Positions 558-61,880 of a stretch of DNA of 64,000 nucleotides are shown here, piece after piece. The position numbers and the translations under genes were made by a program. This DNA is from a virus (lineage: Duplodnaviria; Caudoviricetes). Under the pieces are notes generated by a model, which was not told the DNA's origin, ran no database searches, and saw only the letters and a list, made by a program, of their open reading frames with translations. The stretch spans positions 4,197 through 68,196 of the IMG/VR virus record IMGVR_UViG_3300046779_000717; one strand, written 5' to 3'. The first letter of the stretch is position 1, and every line of letters begins with the position of its first letter.

Positions 558-1170
558 AAATACAGTAATATTGCTGGGCCATTATGGATCCGACCAGGTC
601 ATTGCACAGTCCGCTTGGACATCTACATCAAGAGATTTAAGCGAGGAGAAGATAGCACGCATACCAAAGTTGATCGAGATGCTTTGGACAGAGGGACATG
701 AAAGTCCCTTTGAGAAAGGAAACGTACACTTCTTGGTTACATGTGACATTGCATCACACATTCATTTGTTGAAGCACCGGATCGCATCAATCAATGCAGA
801 GTCAGCAAGATATAAAGAGTTGAAAGAAGATAAGTATTACATACCGGACGATTGGAGTGATGAATGGGCTAATCGCCTTAAGTCTTTTACTGAAATGAGC
901 AATCAGCATTACCATCAGTGTTTGGAAGATCTAACTCCTTTGATAGGTCGTAAGCGTGCCAAGGAGAGTGCACGATTCTTCAAGACGTACAACTCACAGA
1001 TTACTGCTGACGTGCAATTCAACATGCGTTCCTTTGCCAACTTCCTTAAACTTAGGGCCTCAGAGCACGCACAAGTAGAGATAAGAGACATCGCATGGGA
1101 GATGTATAGACTAGTAGAGGGCATCGAGGGTAATCCATTCAAGCACACACTTAAAATGATTAAGCCATGA
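541..1170 (+). CDS. thyX: Flavin-dependent thymidylate synthase
   Basis: ThyX motif variant KHRIASINAESARY, plus N-terminal GSDQVIAQSAWTS, GHESPFE and FLKLRASEHAQVEIR; start moved to ATG 541 because the upstream part of the tracked ORF is the repeat region. Confidence 0.93.
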   Translation: MRKIDTNTVILLGHYGSDQVIAQSAWTSTSRDLSEEKIARIPKLIEMLWTEGHESPFEKGNVHFLVTCDIASHIHLLKHRIASINAESARYKELKEDKYYIPDDWSDEWANRLKSFTEMSNQHYHQCLEDLTPLIGRKRAKESARFFKTYNSQITADVQFNMRSFANFLKLRASEHAQVEIRDIAWEMYRLVEGIEGNPFKHTLKMIKP

Positions 1171-11102: not shown

Positions 11103-14100
11103 TTCTTCTACGTTTTCAGCGCGTTTCTGAATACGTTTGTTGATGTTTTTTGCGACTGTGGCTAAGTCAGAAGGCAGCACTCCGGCAAAGTTACCGGTAA
11201 TCAATAGTGCATTTAGCTTAGCCAAGTCTGCATCTTCTTCTAGTAGTTGTTTTTCTACTTCGTTACCTCTGATCTCTTTAGAGAACTTGCCATCTGCGGC
11301 CATTCTTCCGTAGTCTGAAACCTCTTTTGCTCTATCTATAGCAATACCAAGGGTCCCAAGAATCTTCATCCATGAAGCGTCCTCTCTATCGTAGAACTCA
11401 AACTTCTGATTTTCGTCCTCTATGTCAAACCACTTCTTAGGGATATCCTGTGACATTCCTGTGGCTTCCATTAGATCGTTAACATATCCGCTAACGAATG
11501 CGTCAACGCCTGGAATTGGAGGCAATACGAAATCTTTCATGAAGTTCTGAACTGTAGATGCAGACCTTCTCATGGTTCTTACTTTCTTTTCTTCCTCGTC
11601 ATCCTCCTCGCCCATTATCGCTAGAGCTGTAGCGTACATAACTTCAGAGAAGAACATGCTAAGTCCAGAGAATACAGCCATCTCCGCTAATGCACCAGCC
11701 AATGACTTAGATGCTTCTATCTTGTCTTCAACGCTAGCTACTTTATTAGACAGGATTCTAGAATCAGACCATATTCGTGTCTTCTGGTTCAACACAAATG
11801 TCATCAATGGGAATACACCTCTTCTAACAGCCGCTGTTAATGGGTCTTTACTTGCCAAGAAATCACCCTGCATGTCTGTGTCACTGATGTTTTGTTGTGA
11901 ATCAACCATCATCTGTGCATAGTCTGCAGCTTCTTTGTTTAGCTTGTGGGTATTCCAATCGATATTTGCAGTAGGCAGTCCTTGCTTTTTTAATCCCTGC
12001 TTATAGAAAGATATCCACGCAGCCCTGGCGCCAAATACGTCTGGGTTCTTAAGTGTTATCTCAAGTGCTTTGTTACTCCACTCCGCAATACCATCTATTG
12101 TTCTTAGCGCTAAAGCTTTTTCAGCCTCTACGAGCTTTCTGTTAATAGACTTCAACTCTCCTTGAGATCCTATACCACGATTAGCAATAGGATATCCAGA
12201 CTCGTCGATAAACTTCATGCCTCCGTTAAACAGCGTATGAATGTCTACACGGCCTGTTTGAATCAGCGTATTTACCAATGGTGGGATAAACTGTTTAAAC
12301 GGCTGTGCTATGCTAAACAAGGCCTTTGCAGTACCAAAAGCAGCAGCAGTATTTATAGCTCTGTTTACCTTTGCGAGTTCCCCTTGGTCTACATATTCTC
12401 CACCTTTGATTCTATTAACGTATCCGACAAGCCTCTTCTTGTATATGTTTTTGTCTTCGTTATTAGAAAACAACTTTGAGAAGTTGTTTGAGGTGACAAA
12501 TCCTTTCATTCTGGCAACAGAAGATGCTGTTTCTACATCAACCATTGATGAAGTCATAGCATTTACGTTGTTGGTGTCAAAGTCTAGATTTACAATACGT
12601 GTCCTTGTTCCATTCTTGTCTTTAGGAAGCTCTTTGATCCTGTTGTTTTCTTTTAAAGATCCAGACTTAGAGGTATTAACATATTCGAAGTTGCTAAAGA
12701 ATCCAGACTCAAAATCTTCTTCACTTGTAGAAGATATCTCTTTAGTTTGGAATCTGTCAGGTATAAAGTTGGCATCTCTAGAAAGAATTGTGTTATACAC
12801 GTTTCTAGAAACCTCGTCCATTCTGTCATACTTGCTAGCCCACTGAGATACCCACCAGTCAACAGCCTTTTGGTTTGTTTCGCTAACCTTTGACTTGACG
12901 TCTGCGACATTTTTAGATCCTTTTAAGATCTTGTCATACACATTTTTAATAGTCTCGCCTTTCTTAATTTCCGCTTCAGTGTTGGTGTTAGGATCTTTTA
13001 GCGCCTCAATTGTTTGCTCAATCAGTGTTTTGCGCCTATTAAATTCGTCTTGTACCTGGAATTCGTCACCAATCACAGTTCTTGACATAAAGGCAAGCAT
13101 ACCCCTTTCGATAATATTTTCTGCAGTTAAGAAGTCTTTGGCTTTTGAAAATTTAGAGATATACTCCTTAACTATTCCATCAACCATCTTAATTGCTTTC
13201 GCCTTCCCGTTAGATACTCCGGTAACTCCTGACGCATCCATTACTTCAAGAGCCCTAGAAGTGCTACCCCACATAATCTTATTGAGCATCGGAAGACTTG
13301 CAATGTTTTTAGACCACCAACGCCCGATAGACTTAGACTTATTCTTTTTGATAGGTATTGATTTTACCCCTTTCTTTTCTAGCTTGGCCGCACTTAAGCT
13401 TCCGTCATAAGTATTTACAAGGCCAACCACACCAGACGTAATACCGTTAGCGATAAAGTTGTTTGCATACTCTACGGCTTTAATGGCGTCTGTAAGAGAT
13501 AACTCATCCATGTCCATGTTGGCCAATGATGCTAGAGCCTTTCTTTCATCATAAGTCAAGTCAATAGGATCACCTGTGAATGGATCTTCTCCGGTCTTAA
13601 CAATTTGCTTAATGATTGGAGACATGGTAGCCATCATCTCCTTCACGGCGTCTCTAGCCTCTTTCATCTTATCCTCAGACTGCTCTTTTTCTCCTTCAAT
13701 TGCATCAACTACCTTTTTGATTTCGTTGATTGTCATCTTGTCAGACAAGATACCAGCATCTACCAAGTCTTGGTTCTGGCTAAGAAGCTCATTTTTGATT
13801 TGCTCTCTTTGCTTCTGTATTTGCTCGTCGATGTAGTTAATCATGCTTTCCAAGTTGGCAACATCTCTCATCAATGGAGTGCCAACCTTTCTAGCTACAG
13901 ACTTCAACAAGCTATCTGCTACCTCAATGTATTGGTCGATATCTTCAACCATTGATGGGCTGATCTCATTGAAAGCTTTCGCAATCTTCGCTACCTCTGC
14001 TTGGTTTGATTCAGACTTCGCTGCCTTGCTGATGGCGCGTCTTAGCTTAGAGGCCTGTGCCACCTTGTCTTTGTACTCTGCAGTTTGAAGAACGTTTGAC

Positions 14101-59527: not shown

Positions 59528-59572
59528 TCCCAAGCCAAAGGAATGCAGTCAGTTCGAGTCTGACCTTGGGAG
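59528..59572 (+). ncRNA. tRNA-like minihelix 1 (acceptor stem and T arm only)
   Basis: TCCCAAG/CTTGGGA, GTCAG-TTCGAGT-CTGAC, 13-nt linker; intergenic. Confidence 0.8.
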
Positions 59573-60080: not shown

Positions 60081-60650
60081 ATGGCTAACCATTGTTACAA
60101 TTCAGCAACTATCGAGGGCTCAGAGCAGATGCTCAACCTATTCGAGCAACGCCTCAATGAGGCAACTAAAAGACACCAAGGTTTCTTGTTCCATGCATCA
60201 TTTTACGAAGTGCTTGGTATGGAATCGACTGACGAAGAAACATGGGCAGACTCATATTTCGACCTTGGGTCTAGGTGGTTCTACCCGTTGTGGGAGAGAC
60301 AATCGCCAACCACTGGCGTATTGAGCGGTGACTCTGCGTGGTCGCCAGTATCTGAGTTCTTTCGCAAACTATCTGAGGCATACGAACTGAAGATTGAGTC
60401 AACATACGAAGAATGCGGAGAAAACTTCGGTGGATGGTATGACTGCGTCAACGGAGAGGTAACACGTGACGTAACAACATCATACTTCGCATTCAGATAC
60501 ATGGACGAGGGCGACTACTACATTCAGAACCTAATCGAGGATGCAGAGGATGGATATTGGGAGAGCGCAGATGAACTAGACGAGGACTTGCTCGAGGTGA
60601 TGAGTGACGAGGACAAACAAAGTTTAATTAACGCAATAAACAAGATATGA
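60081..60650 (+). CDS. DUF1281/YubB ferredoxin-like family protein
   Basis: MANHCYNSATIEG...LGSRW...DSAWSPV...YEECGENFGG. Confidence 0.7.
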   Translation: MANHCYNSATIEGSEQMLNLFEQRLNEATKRHQGFLFHASFYEVLGMESTDEETWADSYFDLGSRWFYPLWERQSPTTGVLSGDSAWSPVSEFFRKLSEAYELKIESTYEECGENFGGWYDCVNGEVTRDVTTSYFAFRYMDEGDYYIQNLIEDAEDGYWESADELDEDLLEVMSDEDKQSLINAINKI

Positions 60651-61048
60651 AATACACAACACAAGACAACTTCACGTGGTACACAATTGAACCACACGTG
60701 GCTAGAATCCTACACGACGCAGACTACTGCGTGTATGAACTGCATGACGACGACTCAGAGTCATTGTGTGTAGATGGTCACGAGTTCAGTAACGCTAGCG
60801 GTGTGCGCTACGCCATCGAGACTCCGTCAAACGACGTTATCCATTGCTTGTGCGGAGAGAATGCAATTGCTCCATTCATTGATGGTAATCTTGAGAACTG
60901 CTTTGACGCCATCTTTAGTTATCGCACTGCTGACATCACGTTCTTTGGTCACAACGACGAACTGACAAGTGTGTTGAAGAAATTGTCAAAGTGTGGTGCT
61001 ACCATGTCAATTTCGCCAGCAGAGTTCTTGAGTATAATTGAATTGTAA
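60647..61048 (+). CDS. Hypothetical protein
   Basis: 133 aa, ATGA-coupled. Confidence 0.65.
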   Translation: MKYTTQDNFTWYTIEPHVARILHDADYCVYELHDDDSESLCVDGHEFSNASGVRYAIETPSNDVIHCLCGENAIAPFIDGNLENCFDAIFSYRTADITFFGHNDELTSVLKKLSKCGATMSISPAEFLSIIEL

Positions 61049-61257
61049 TCAACTAGACGTGGCTTGACCGCCACCCTAGTTCAAGCACCGCTATCAGCCC
61101 GATAGCACAAGCCAAGGTGGATCACTTGGGGTGACAAAGTTCTTTGACATATTGGACGATTGTTTGGTGGTCGAATGACCGACCAACTATGTACGCACAC
61201 TTCACTGAGTCTCAGTGATTGAATTGGTATGGAACAGCCAAGGTGATGCGGTGAACA
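61049..61257 (+). ncRNA. Hairpin-dense candidate ncRNA segment
   Basis: Successive hairpins GCTTGA/TCAAGC, GCTATC/GATAGC, TTGGTGGTC/GACCGACCAA, TCACTGAG/CTCAGTGA; no credible + strand ORF. Confidence 0.5.
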
Positions 61258-61304
61258 GCACGGGATATGAACGGATATATGGGGTTCAAATCCCCACCCG
61301 TGCG
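61258..61304 (+). ncRNA. tRNA-like minihelix 2
   Basis: GCACGGG/CCCGTGC, TGGGG-TTCAAAT-CCCCA, 15-nt linker ATATGAACGGATATA. Confidence 0.8.
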
Positions 61305-61308
61305 CAAA

Positions 61309-61382
61309 GGTCAGCCAGCACTGACCCTCAACGATAGGTTGAAAAGTCATGATATTGAAAACGGGTGACTGCTGGGTCACCC
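61309..61382 (+). ncRNA. Kissing-loop RNA
   Basis: GGTCAG-CCAGCA-CTGACC and GGGTGAC-TGCTGG-GTCACCC; the two loops are exact complements. Confidence 0.7.
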
Positions 61383-61387
61383 TATAT

Positions 61388-61509
61388 AGCAGAGTGGCGA
61401 CATGGTTGTCGCATGAGAGATGATGGACTAATTGCCATCCCTGTTGCATAGCAGAAAGTAGCTTAAATAAAGCGCTCATTTGCAGGTTCGAGTCCTGCCT
61501 CTGCTACCA
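61388..61509 (+). ncRNA. tRNA-like element with branched 57-nt insert replacing the anticodon loop, CCA encoded
   Basis: AGCAGAG/CTCTGCT+ACCA, D arm GCGAC-ATGGTT-GTCGC, ATGAG/CTCAT stem, T arm GCAGG-TTCGAGT-CCTGC. Confidence 0.8.
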
Positions 61510-61511
61510 CT

Positions 61512-61880
61512 ATGAGATTGACAAATGGTAAGTTCTACGATGGGGACAAGGAAGTCCCTCTAGAGTTCGGAAATCGGGAGCAGATTGAACTGCTCAAGAC
61601 GGCTATCGCCGAGGCCGAGAAAGGCCACAAAGTTAATGTCAACACAAACGAGAAGGTAACTTATAAGTTATCAATGGATTGGAAGTGTTGCAAATGTTTC
61701 AAGTTAAACGTGGATGACGATTGGAATGAGTACGAAGACTGGGAGCCAGACTTTGACGACATCCAGTGCTTCATTGAAGACAACATAGAATGCTCACATT
61801 GTGGGCAGGAACACAAACTAGTAGTAGACAAGACAAATAGATTTAGCCCACAATATTATGTTCAAGCAGAAACTGACTAA
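61512..61880 (+). CDS. Zinc-ribbon-containing protein
   Basis: CCKC...CSHC. Confidence 0.7.
   Translation: MRLTNGKFYDGDKEVPLEFGNREQIELLKTAIAEAEKGHKVNVNTNEKVTYKLSMDWKCCKCFKLNVDDDWNEYEDWEPDFDDIQCFIEDNIECSHCGQEHKLVVDKTNRFSPQYYVQAETD

What the first reader, a model, noticed from the sequence alone, without database searches (positions are those of the whole stretch)
61309..61382. Compact kissing-loop RNA between two tRNA mimics
Seen: hairpin GGTCAG-[CCAGCA]-CTGACC and hairpin GGGTGAC-[TGCTGG]-GTCACCC have 6-nt loops that are exact reverse complements. Between them lie a TCAAC-GATAG-GTTGA hairpin and an A-rich linker (AAAGTCATGATATTGAAAAC). Processing of the flanking tRNA mimics would release it as a discrete RNA of about 83 nt. 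Inference: an unrecognised ribozyme, aptamer or oligomerising RNA; intermolecular kissing, as in phi29 pRNA, is also possible.
Basis: partly seen in the sequence, partly recalled or inferred. Interest (0 to 1): 0.75.

Follow-up and report, generated by a model that had tools for sequence, protein, structure and literature searches.

The report
Phage small RNA with kissing hairpin loops
A roughly 80-base RNA module in a freshwater phage has two hairpins whose six-base loops stay complementary, through matched changes, in phages of at least two very different genome sizes, which marks an undescribed family of structured phage RNA attached to tRNA look-alikes.

Summary
No other hairpin pair of this kind occurs in the 64-kb window, and 1 of 300 shuffles produced one.

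I collected 18 distinct modules from close relatives and from unrelated 55-126 kb phages. All 108 loop-loop positions pair. One position uses G:C, A:U and U:A; another uses C:G, U:A and U.G. The flanking stems turn over completely. Arrays with two modules use a different loop pair in each. The loop-loop ("kissing") contact is therefore real and under selection on the + strand RNA.

The module always starts after a tRNA mimic plus one base plus CAAA. It ends either at a T-run, where H3 doubles as a terminator, or directly at the next tRNA mimic, as in this window.

Rfam 15 has no matching family, and none of the cultured phages I searched (by sequence across the phage collection, by model in three relatives) carries the module.

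Best reading: a compact small RNA, released by tRNA-processing enzymes and folded by an intramolecular kissing helix. Its function is unknown. Oligomerisation, self-cleavage and termination control remain open.

The parts
61139..61257 (+). Conserved 5' domain of the non-coding unit. A multi-helix fold closed by GTTC (61139-61142) pairing with GAAC (61253-61256), directly in front of the minihelix.
   Evidence: Conservation among 10 homologs starts exactly at 61139, while the sequence upstream differs between lineages. RNAalifold gives the closing stem, a long hairpin and a stem enclosing two hairpins, with compensatory changes. Model R1 scores 150-289 bits in 15 other loci that carry the complete unit.
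61258..61304 (+). tRNA-like minihelix: 7-bp acceptor stem, a 4-bp hairpin in place of the D and anticodon arms, a T arm with a GGTTCAAATCC-type loop, and discriminator G61304.
   Evidence: Read. Sub-threshold resemblance to the mascRNA model (21.3 bits, gathering 42.5). The acceptor pair covaries C:G to U:A in 3 of 9 distinct sequences and all acceptor cells pair.
61305..61308 (+). Single-stranded CAAA trailer between the discriminator base and H1.
   Evidence: Invariant in all 18 modules. The same N+CAAA follows the other minihelix of this window (59528-59572) and a phage tmRNA gene in L119.
61309..61326 (+). H1 hairpin: 6-bp stem and 6-nt loop CCAGCA (61315-61320), the first kissing partner.
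   Evidence: Four of the 6 stem pairs show compensatory changes across the family. The loop is always CCANNA.
61328..61342 (+). H2 hairpin: 5-bp stem, pentaloop GATAG, followed by a conserved AAA.
   Evidence: Four of 5 stem pairs covary family-wide. The loop varies (GATAG, GAAAG, GCAAG and longer forms). A short second module in L119 has no H2.
61343..61362 (+). A/U-rich linker of variable sequence and length.
   Evidence: About 20 nt in this window and up to about 57 nt in the module with the longest linker. It is not conserved apart from the leading AAA.
61363..61382 (+). H3 hairpin: 7-bp stem and 6-nt loop TGCTGG (61370-61375), the second kissing partner. It is terminator-like in most relatives but has no T-run in this window.
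   Evidence: All 7 stem pairs covary, with wholly different stems in different lineages, while the loop tracks the H1 loop. It is followed by TTT(T) in most relatives. The + strand terminator scan does not flag it here.
61388..61509 (+). Downstream tRNA mimic with an encoded ACCA end and a large insert in place of the anticodon arm. It bounds the module in this window.
   Evidence: Rfam tRNA model 33.1 bits over 61388-61506 with a 57-nt insert; ARAGORN negative. It occurs with ORF 61512-61880 only in the window, L086 and L091, where the insert differs.

Best explanation
The stretch 61305-61382 is one copy of a conserved modular phage RNA: CAAA, H1, H2, an A/U-rich tether, then H3.

Shown by comparison: the 6-nt loops of H1 and H3 base-pair with each other on the + strand RNA.

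Inferred:
- The contact is mainly intramolecular. It would stack H1, the 6-bp loop-loop helix and H3 into one rod of about 19 bp. H2 and the variable tether bridge the two ends of that rod.
- The module is cut out of a longer transcript by the host's tRNA-processing enzymes. RNase Z or another 3' trailer nuclease would cut after the discriminator of the upstream tRNA mimic.
- The 3' end would be made in one of two ways. Termination at H3 applies where a U-run follows, as in most relatives. RNase P cutting at the next tRNA mimic applies in this window.
- The compact fold would give a stable RNA of about 80 nt.

The cellular role of that RNA is unknown. Selection acts on shape rather than on any single-stranded seed sequence, so I favour a structural, protein-binding or decoy role over antisense regulation.
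For: 1. The complementary loops are real and unlikely by chance.

2. Among 16 closely related loci found with patterns that do not touch H1 or H3, the loops always pair. They occur as CCAGCA/TGCTGG, CCATCA/TGATGG, CCAACA/TGTTGG and CCAGTA/TGCTGG, the last with a U.G wobble.

3. A pattern that specified only the T arm, CAAAGG and CCANNA found nine more contigs from other phages of 55-126 kb (some near-identical to each other). In each, a downstream hairpin with a T-run has the exact complement as its loop, including a fifth type, CCAATA/TATTGG.

4. On the family alignment, 108 of 108 loop-loop cells are standard pairs. One pair uses GC 7, AU 6, UA 5. Another uses CG 15, UA 2, UG 1. All 7 H3 stem pairs and 4 of 6 H1 stem pairs covary. 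Sliding the partners by 1-3 columns removes the signal.

5. G.U pairs in the stems and in the kissing helix would be A.C on the other strand, so the RNA is the + strand.

6. Arrays with two or more modules (L098, L099, L119/L120, L112) use a different loop pair for each module.

7. Module boundaries are constant. There is a tRNA mimic + N + CAAA on the 5' side. On the 3' side there is either a T-run or, within 1-6 nt, the next mimic or punctuating hairpin.

8. The loop duplexes are stable on their own (-4.1 to -8.4 kcal/mol). Established knowledge supports feasibility: 6-nt loops can pair along their full length, as in the TAR-TAR* kissing complex. Acceptor/T-arm minihelices are sufficient substrates for RNase P and RNase Z.
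Against: - There is no direct evidence of processing, of the RNA's ends or of its abundance.
- Short contigs from four metatranscriptome runs cover 61124-61383, but they run on past both ends and may derive from DNA.
- Sequence cannot separate intramolecular from intermolecular kissing.
- In this window a nested alternative helix that uses the loops lies only 1.9 kcal/mol above the hairpin fold. It is not conserved in lineages with other stems.
- The family alignment holds few independent lineages. Part of the wider family was found with a pattern that fixed CCANNA in the H1 loop.
- No function follows from the fold.
Confidence: 0.55

Rival explanations
1. The complementary loops act between molecules. 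Each RNA offers one loop to a neighbour, hand in hand, building dimers or closed rings as phi29 pRNA does. The different loop pairs in one array would then give separate assemblies.
For: Loop pairs differ between modules of one array. The covariation fits this reading as well as it fits intramolecular pairing.
Against: The tether is always long enough for the intramolecular contact: at least 20 nt plus H2 in the standard modules, about 16 nt in the short L119 module that lacks H2. At equal strength the intramolecular contact is favoured by local concentration. None of the other pRNA features is present: no 5'/3' terminal helix, no three-way junction, no Rfam pRNA hit, no phi29-type phage.
Confidence: 0.13
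2. The module is a new self-cleaving ribozyme. It would cut at its own 5' edge (N|CAAA) to make the 3' end of the tRNA mimic, as HDV-like theta ribozymes are proposed to do behind phage tRNAs.
For: It always sits directly behind a tRNA-like acceptor end. It has a pseudoknot-like tertiary contact and about 15 invariant unpaired or loop nucleotides (CAAA, C after H1, CCA..A, T..TGG, AAA). There is a precedent for ribozymes 3' of phage tRNAs (PMC10879173, found; I read only its title and abstract line).
Against: No known ribozyme model matches, even at E <= 10. The same N+CAAA follows a minihelix with no module behind it (59528-59572), a tmRNA and other, different trailers. CAAA therefore looks like a feature of the tRNA trailer, not of a catalytic core.
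Confidence: 0.1
3. The module is a cis-acting termination device. Kissing between H1 and the loop of the nascent H3 hairpin would tune how well H3 terminates transcription in front of the next gene, possibly in response to a ligand or protein.
For: In most members H3 carries a T-run. In the window's close relatives it lies 10-20 nt before the next start codon.
Against: H3 has no T-run in this window, L086, L091 and the internal modules of L098, L099 and L112, yet the loops still match there. No alternative anti-terminator pairing is conserved. In the larger phages the module closes a tRNA/tmRNA cluster rather than leading a gene.
Confidence: 0.12
4. The two loops are half-sites of an inverted DNA repeat bound by a dimeric protein, or the match is chance.
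For: CCAGCA ... TGCTGG is formally an inverted repeat. Matched changes in both half-sites would also be expected for a DNA site.
Against: One member pairs through U.G, which is a mismatch at the DNA level. Half-site spacing varies from about 49 to about 87 bp (my count from the sequences). The motifs always sit in the loops of hairpins whose stems covary. G.U pairs are strand-specific. Chance is excluded.
Confidence: 0.02

Closest known systems
   Same: A small phage-encoded RNA near a genome end. It has two loops complementary to each other, and the pairing, rather than the loop sequence, is kept among relatives.
   Different: In pRNA the pairing is 4 nt and obligately intermolecular. pRNA also has a three-way junction and a 5'/3' helix that binds the packaging ATPase, and it occurs in protein-primed phi29-type phages. 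Here the loops are 6 nt, the RNA is a string of hairpins with no terminal helix, the phage has a P22-like portal, and the Rfam scan gives no match.
TAR-TAR* and retroviral DIS kissing complexes (from my own knowledge)
   Same: Two hairpins pair through 6-nt loops. In TAR-TAR* all six loop bases pair and the three helices stack.
   Different: Those complexes are bimolecular model or viral dimerisation systems. Here both partners lie on one transcript 37-74 nt apart (my count), inside a conserved module with a third hairpin.
tRNA-linked small RNAs released by tRNA-processing enzymes: MHV68 tRNA-miRNA units, and MALAT1 with mascRNA (from my own knowledge)
   Same: A tRNA-like element serves as a processing handle next to a structured RNA, so that RNase P or RNase Z defines the neighbour's ends.
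   Different: Those are eukaryotic or herpesviral. Their neighbours are pre-miRNA hairpins or a triple-helix end. Processing of the phage module has not been shown.
HDV-like theta ribozymes behind phage tRNAs (PMC10879173)
   Same: A structured element placed directly 3' of a phage tRNA(-like) gene.
   Different: Theta ribozymes have the nested double-pseudoknot HDV fold. This module is three hairpins plus a loop-loop helix, and it matches no ribozyme model.
Guanidine-II (mini-ykkC) riboswitch (from my own knowledge)
   Same: Two hairpins joined by a variable linker that associate through their loops.
   Different: Mini-ykkC loops are identical, invariant ACGR tetraloops that bind the ligand. 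Here the loops are complementary hexamers whose middle positions vary freely, and there is no conserved ligand pocket.

Membership tests
phi29-type pRNA | Two loops of one RNA complementary to each other, with the complementarity kept among relatives | tested here: met
   108 of 108 loop-loop cells pair, with 3 pair types at one position.
phi29-type pRNA | 5' and 3' ends paired in a terminal helix that joins a three-way junction | tested here: not met
   RNAalifold and the covariance-model alignments give a linear string of hairpins, with no pairing between module ends.
phi29-type pRNA | Match to the curated pRNA model and occurrence in phi29-like phages | tested here: not met
   No Rfam match at gathering score in the window, or at E <= 10 in 60900-61700. 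The phage has a P22-like portal and relatives that infect Flavobacteriia.
phi29-type pRNA | Loop pairing is intermolecular and builds a ring on the portal | not testable with these tools
   Needs native gels or structural work.
Known self-cleaving ribozymes (hammerhead, HDV-like, twister, pistol, hatchet, hairpin, VS) | Match to the family's conserved core and fold | tested here: not met
   cmscan of 60900-61700 against all 4227 Rfam families at E <= 10 lists no ribozyme over 61305-61382.
Known self-cleaving ribozymes (hammerhead, HDV-like, twister, pistol, hatchet, hairpin, VS) | Site-specific self-cleavage | not testable with these tools
   Needs an in vitro cleavage assay.
Guanidine-II (mini-ykkC) riboswitch | Two hairpins with invariant ACGR tetraloops | tested here: not met
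   The loops are CCANNA and TNNTGG hexamers.
Intrinsic (Rho-independent) terminator, for H3 | G+C-rich hairpin directly followed by a U-run | tested here: not met
   In this window H3 is followed by TATAT and the + strand scan does not flag it. The feature is met in most relatives, where TTT(T) follows.
tRNA (Rfam RF00005), for the two flanking elements | Cloverleaf with acceptor, D, anticodon and T arms and a readable anticodon | tested here: not met
   Downstream element: 33.1 bits (gathering 29), but a 57-nt insert takes the place of a 9-nt stretch of the anticodon arm. Upstream element: acceptor and T arm only. ARAGORN finds no tRNA in the window.
tRNA-linked processed small RNA (works-like class, not a sequence family) | A structured RNA abutting a tRNA-like element that RNase P or RNase Z can cut | tested here: inconclusive
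   The adjacency is invariant. Cleavage itself was not observed, and the RNA-library contigs give no ends.

The most novel reading that the evidence does not exclude
The module is an address-coded self-associating RNA. The variable middle bases of the two loops would act as a two-letter address that decides which hairpins, in cis or between molecules, may join. A phage could then build several non-interfering RNA folds or assemblies from one transcript punctuated by tRNA mimics. Alternatively, the fold is the core of a new self-cleaving ribozyme class that trims tRNA-mimic trailers.
Probability: 0.15. Interest if true: 0.9.

Novelty: new variant of a known kind. Interest (0 to 1): 0.75.

Why it matters
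- Loop-loop contacts proven by covariation are rare outside a few textbook RNAs. This one is short, modular and naturally present in at least five compatible loop pairs, with different pairs used side by side in one array.
- It marks an unannotated RNA family in uncultured phages. The family sits beside tRNA mimics, real tRNA-Leu genes and tmRNA genes, and no match to it appears in the Rfam scans.
- It supports the view that some phages punctuate their transcripts with tRNA-shaped processing signals to release small structured RNAs.
- If the RNA proves to be a decoy, a scaffold, an oligomer or a ribozyme, it adds a new kind of phage-host RNA biology.
- It would also give RNA engineering a natural set of orthogonal kissing pairs.

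Tried and rejected
- **Rfam.** Nothing at gathering score in the window. At E <= 10 only the tRNA hit and weak noise.
- **ARAGORN.** No tRNA in the window or in the close homologs.
- **blastn against cultured phages.** No match for the window's region or for the larger phages' versions.
- **Neighbour protein 61512-61880 in IMG/VR.** No relatives.
- **Models R1, R2, R3 on other phages.** No module in more distant complete relatives (portal 63-69% identical) or in Flavobacterium phage elemoA, Maribacter phage Panino and MW202828. The weak R3 hits there are plain terminators after coding sequence.
- **Bacterial genome collection.** One 860-bp contig in a MAG bin carries the unit (L101). The other hit is unrelated.
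- **The look-up of encoding contigs.** The seven homologs of the downstream protein could therefore not be used to fetch more loci.
- **Reads.** Contigs from four metatranscriptome runs cover parts of 61124-61383. They are 151-243 nt long, run on into flanking sequence, and show no starts or ends. They are no evidence of expression or of RNA boundaries.
- **Extended H1/H3 duplex as an anti-terminator.** It is possible in this window (-26.8 against -28.7 kcal/mol). I rejected it because lineages with other stems cannot form it.
- **Extra copies of the loop motifs nearby as third partners.** None, except one case in L119.
- **Loop-free scan.** It returned the known members plus about six other trailers of different shape. 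I could not assign those to the family.
- **Host of the 55-126 kb phages.** Only weak protein similarities, so unresolved.
- **Literature searches.** No description of this motif. A catalogue of about 10,000 unnamed candidate phage RNAs (PMC10690425) may include it, but I could not search that catalogue by sequence.

Full report
**1. What is at the site**

On the + strand:
- H1 is at 61309-61326, with a 6-bp stem and loop CCAGCA at 61315-61320.
- H2 is at 61328-61342, with a 5-bp stem and loop GATAG.
- A 20-nt A-rich linker follows at 61343-61362.
- H3 is at 61363-61382, with a 7-bp stem and loop TGCTGG at 61370-61375.

The loops are exact reverse complements. RNAfold returns the three hairpins as the minimum-energy and centroid fold (-28.7 kcal/mol, z = -3.5), and the H1 loop is unpaired with P = 0.93. 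I scanned the whole window for hairpin pairs with at least 5 Watson-Crick bp, 6-nt loops and a spacing within 120 nt. This is the only pair with complementary loops. One of 300 dinucleotide-preserving shuffles of the window gave any such pair.

**2. Setting**

The window is bases 4197-68196 of a 68,196-bp IMG/VR virus record rated complete. It encodes a P22-like portal, very large virion proteins and a tail fibre. The portal is 45-50% identical to those of Flavobacterium (elemo), Cellulophaga and Maribacter phages.

The finding lies in a 463-nt gap between + strand ORFs (60647-61048 and 61512-61880) near the right end. Rfam has nothing at gathering score in the window. A sensitive local scan gives a tRNA-model hit at 61388-61506 (33.1 bits, with a 57-nt insert in place of a 9-nt stretch of the anticodon arm). 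It also gives a sub-threshold mascRNA-like hit on the minihelix at 61258-61303. ARAGORN calls no tRNA.

**3. Close homologs**

DNA patterns taken from the minihelix or the 5' domain, not from H1 or H3, retrieved 16 related loci from IMG/VR, JGI metagenomes and one MAG bin. A covariance model of the whole unit scores 150-289 bits on 15 loci that carry the complete unit, and also matches two loci cut by a contig end (L087, 238 bits; L101, 151 bits).

Conservation begins sharply at 61139, and the upstream sequences differ between lineages. RNAalifold folds 61139-61257 into a domain closed by GTTC/GAAC, followed by the minihelix, H1, H2, a non-conserved linker and H3.

The downstream context varies. 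In most loci H3 is followed by TTT(T) and, 10-20 nt later, by the start of a conserved small ORF. Only the window, L086 and L091 carry the tRNA mimic plus an extra ORF directly after H3. 'Between two tRNA mimics' is therefore the minority context. In the majority H3 looks like the unit's intrinsic terminator.

**4. The loops covary**

Among the close homologs the loop pairs are:
- CCAGCA/TGCTGG in most.
- CCATCA/TGATGG in the L082 group, and separately in L099, which has quite different stems.
- CCAACA/TGTTGG in a second, tandem module in L098.
- CCAGTA/TGCTGG in a second module in L099. This pair contains a U.G wobble.

On 16 distinct modules, 96 of 96 loop-loop cells are standard pairs. The H3 stem is replaced wholesale between lineages, in at least five unrelated versions, and the H1 stem flips two pairs. 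The constraint is therefore on the loops, not on an extended inverted repeat.

The U.G pair and the many G.U pairs in the stems would be mismatches on the other strand or in DNA. This fixes the + strand RNA as the object under selection.

**5. A wider family**

I ran a scan that specified only a T-arm core, 11 free bases, CAAAGG, 4 free bases and CCANNA, and nothing about H3. It found nine further contigs from other phages of 55-126 kb, some near-identical to each other; one further hit (L113) was false. One of the nine (L112) had already been found by an earlier scan that did constrain the H3 loop. In every one of the nine, a downstream hairpin with a T-run has the exact complement of the H1 loop as its own loop. 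These include CCAACA/TGTTGG again and a fifth type, CCAATA/TATTGG.

In these phages the element in front of the module is a tRNA-Leu look-alike. In four of the five loci read in detail it has the acceptor, D and T arms of a phage tRNA-Leu (L115 shows the real gene next to a mimic with a different acceptor stem). The anticodon and variable region is replaced in all. A real tRNA-Leu gene or a tmRNA gene lies just upstream.

On the model-based alignment of 18 distinct modules:
- The kissing helix is paired in 108 of 108 cells.
- Its fourth pair uses GC 7, AU 6, UA 5. Its fifth uses CG 15, UA 2, UG 1.
- All 7 H3 stem pairs, 4 of 6 H1 pairs and 4 of 5 H2 pairs show compensatory changes.
- Sliding the partners by 1-3 columns drops pairing to 35-47%.

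Two further arrays show the same design with other loop sequences. L119 has a 7-nt pair in a short module that lacks H2. L112 has an 8-nt pair between a large hairpin loop and the loop of the final terminator. In every array with two or more modules, the modules use different loop pairs.

Caveats. The lineages are few and related, and part of the wider set was found with CCANNA fixed. A last scan with free loops returned the same members plus several trailers of different shape that I could not place.

**6. What it is not**

- No Rfam ribozyme, riboswitch or pRNA model matches.
- The pRNA features other than complementary loops are absent: no terminal helix, no three-way junction, no phi29-type phage.
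- The loops are not the invariant ACGR of guanidine-II.
- A DNA-level inverted repeat is disfavoured by the wobble pair, the variable spacing and the covarying stems.
- A nested long-range helix that uses the loops is only 1.9 kcal/mol above the hairpin fold in this window. Lineages with other stems cannot form it.
- More distant complete relatives and three cultured relatives lack the module. blastn finds no cultured phage with it.

**7. How it most likely works**

Shown: H1 and H3 loops pair on the RNA. The module has fixed boundaries, with a tRNA mimic, one base and CAAA on the 5' side, and a terminator or the next mimic on the 3' side.

Inferred from established properties of RNase P and RNase Z, which accept acceptor/T-arm minihelices: the mimics are processing handles that release the module as an RNA of about 80 nt. 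In this window it would run from 61305 to about 61385. Where the module is last in its array, termination at H3 makes the 3' end.

Inferred from geometry: a 6-bp loop-loop helix stacked between H1 and H3 gives a rod of about 19 bp. H2 plus a tether of at least 20 nt can bridge its two ends. The conserved CAAA, the AAA after H2 and the GNRA-like H2 pentaloops are candidates for minor-groove contacts.

CAAA also follows a minihelix with no module behind it (59528-59572) and a tmRNA. It therefore probably belongs to the trailer signal rather than to the fold.

The function of the released RNA is open. Selection on shape and the absence of a conserved single-stranded seed point to a structural, protein-binding or decoy role.

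**8. Expression**

Fifteen run records hold half or more of the stretch's sampled words, thirteen of them labelled DNA. Short contigs from four metatranscriptome libraries cover parts of 61124-61383. They continue into flanking sequence and give no ends, so they show neither transcription nor processing.

**9. Verdict**

The kissing-loop reading is strongly supported by covariation in phages of at least two very different genome sizes. The unit is an undescribed structured RNA family tied to tRNA mimics. Its biological role remains to be found.

Noticed in passing
window 61388-61509 and 61512-61880; L086 from about 923; L091 9325-9820: The downstream tRNA mimic (encoded ACCA end, anticodon arm replaced) and the 122-aa ORF behind it form a cassette. 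It occurs in only 3 of 16 close relatives and is inserted exactly between H3 and the start of the next conserved ORF. L086 and L091 keep the acceptor and T arms, but their D arm is more tRNA-Leu-like and their internal insert is different.
   Followed up: partly
window 59528-59572: A second acceptor/T-arm minihelix lies between two early ORFs. It is also followed by G + CAAA, but no kissing module follows it.
   Followed up: partly
   Followed up: partly
window 61049-61135; L091 8985-9065: More hairpins lie upstream of the conserved unit in some lineages. One 6-bp hairpin with an AGYCY pentaloop covaries between the window and L091 and resembles the hairpin at 61203-61220. The motif AGCCAAGGTG occurs twice (about 61111 and 61237).
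   Followed up: no
L098 about 1000-1035 (- strand); L099 about 11835-11866 (- strand); L112 5474-5506 and 5636-5668: A punctuating hairpin of 11-15 bp with a conserved GGATAG...TTATCC core separates modules in arrays where no tRNA mimic does. It too is followed by N + CAAAG. It may be another processing site.
   Followed up: no
L119 1395-1520 and 1636-1700: The enlarged anticodon-like loop of the tRNA-Leu mimic contains CCTATAA. The same 7-mer forms the H1 loop of the second module, so it too could pair with that module's terminator loop.
   Followed up: partly
L118 5981-6333 (- strand); L119 1051-1403: These phages encode a tmRNA (tag peptide ending in ...MAA) directly upstream of the tRNA-Leu mimic and the module. 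The tmRNA acceptor end is followed by CAAA rather than by CCA alone.
   Followed up: no
L139/L147, L141/L142/L145/L151, L152/L153 (positions as): In other IMG/VR phages the same tRNA-like end + N + CAAAGG leads into different structured trailers without the H1/H3 layout. The CAAAGG trailer start may therefore be a wider signal.
   Followed up: partly
L095, L094, L099 compared with the window and L082: The unit is mosaic. Variants of the 5' domain, minihelix, H1 stem and H3 stem occur in different combinations in different contigs, which suggests recombination between co-occurring phage lineages.
   Followed up: no
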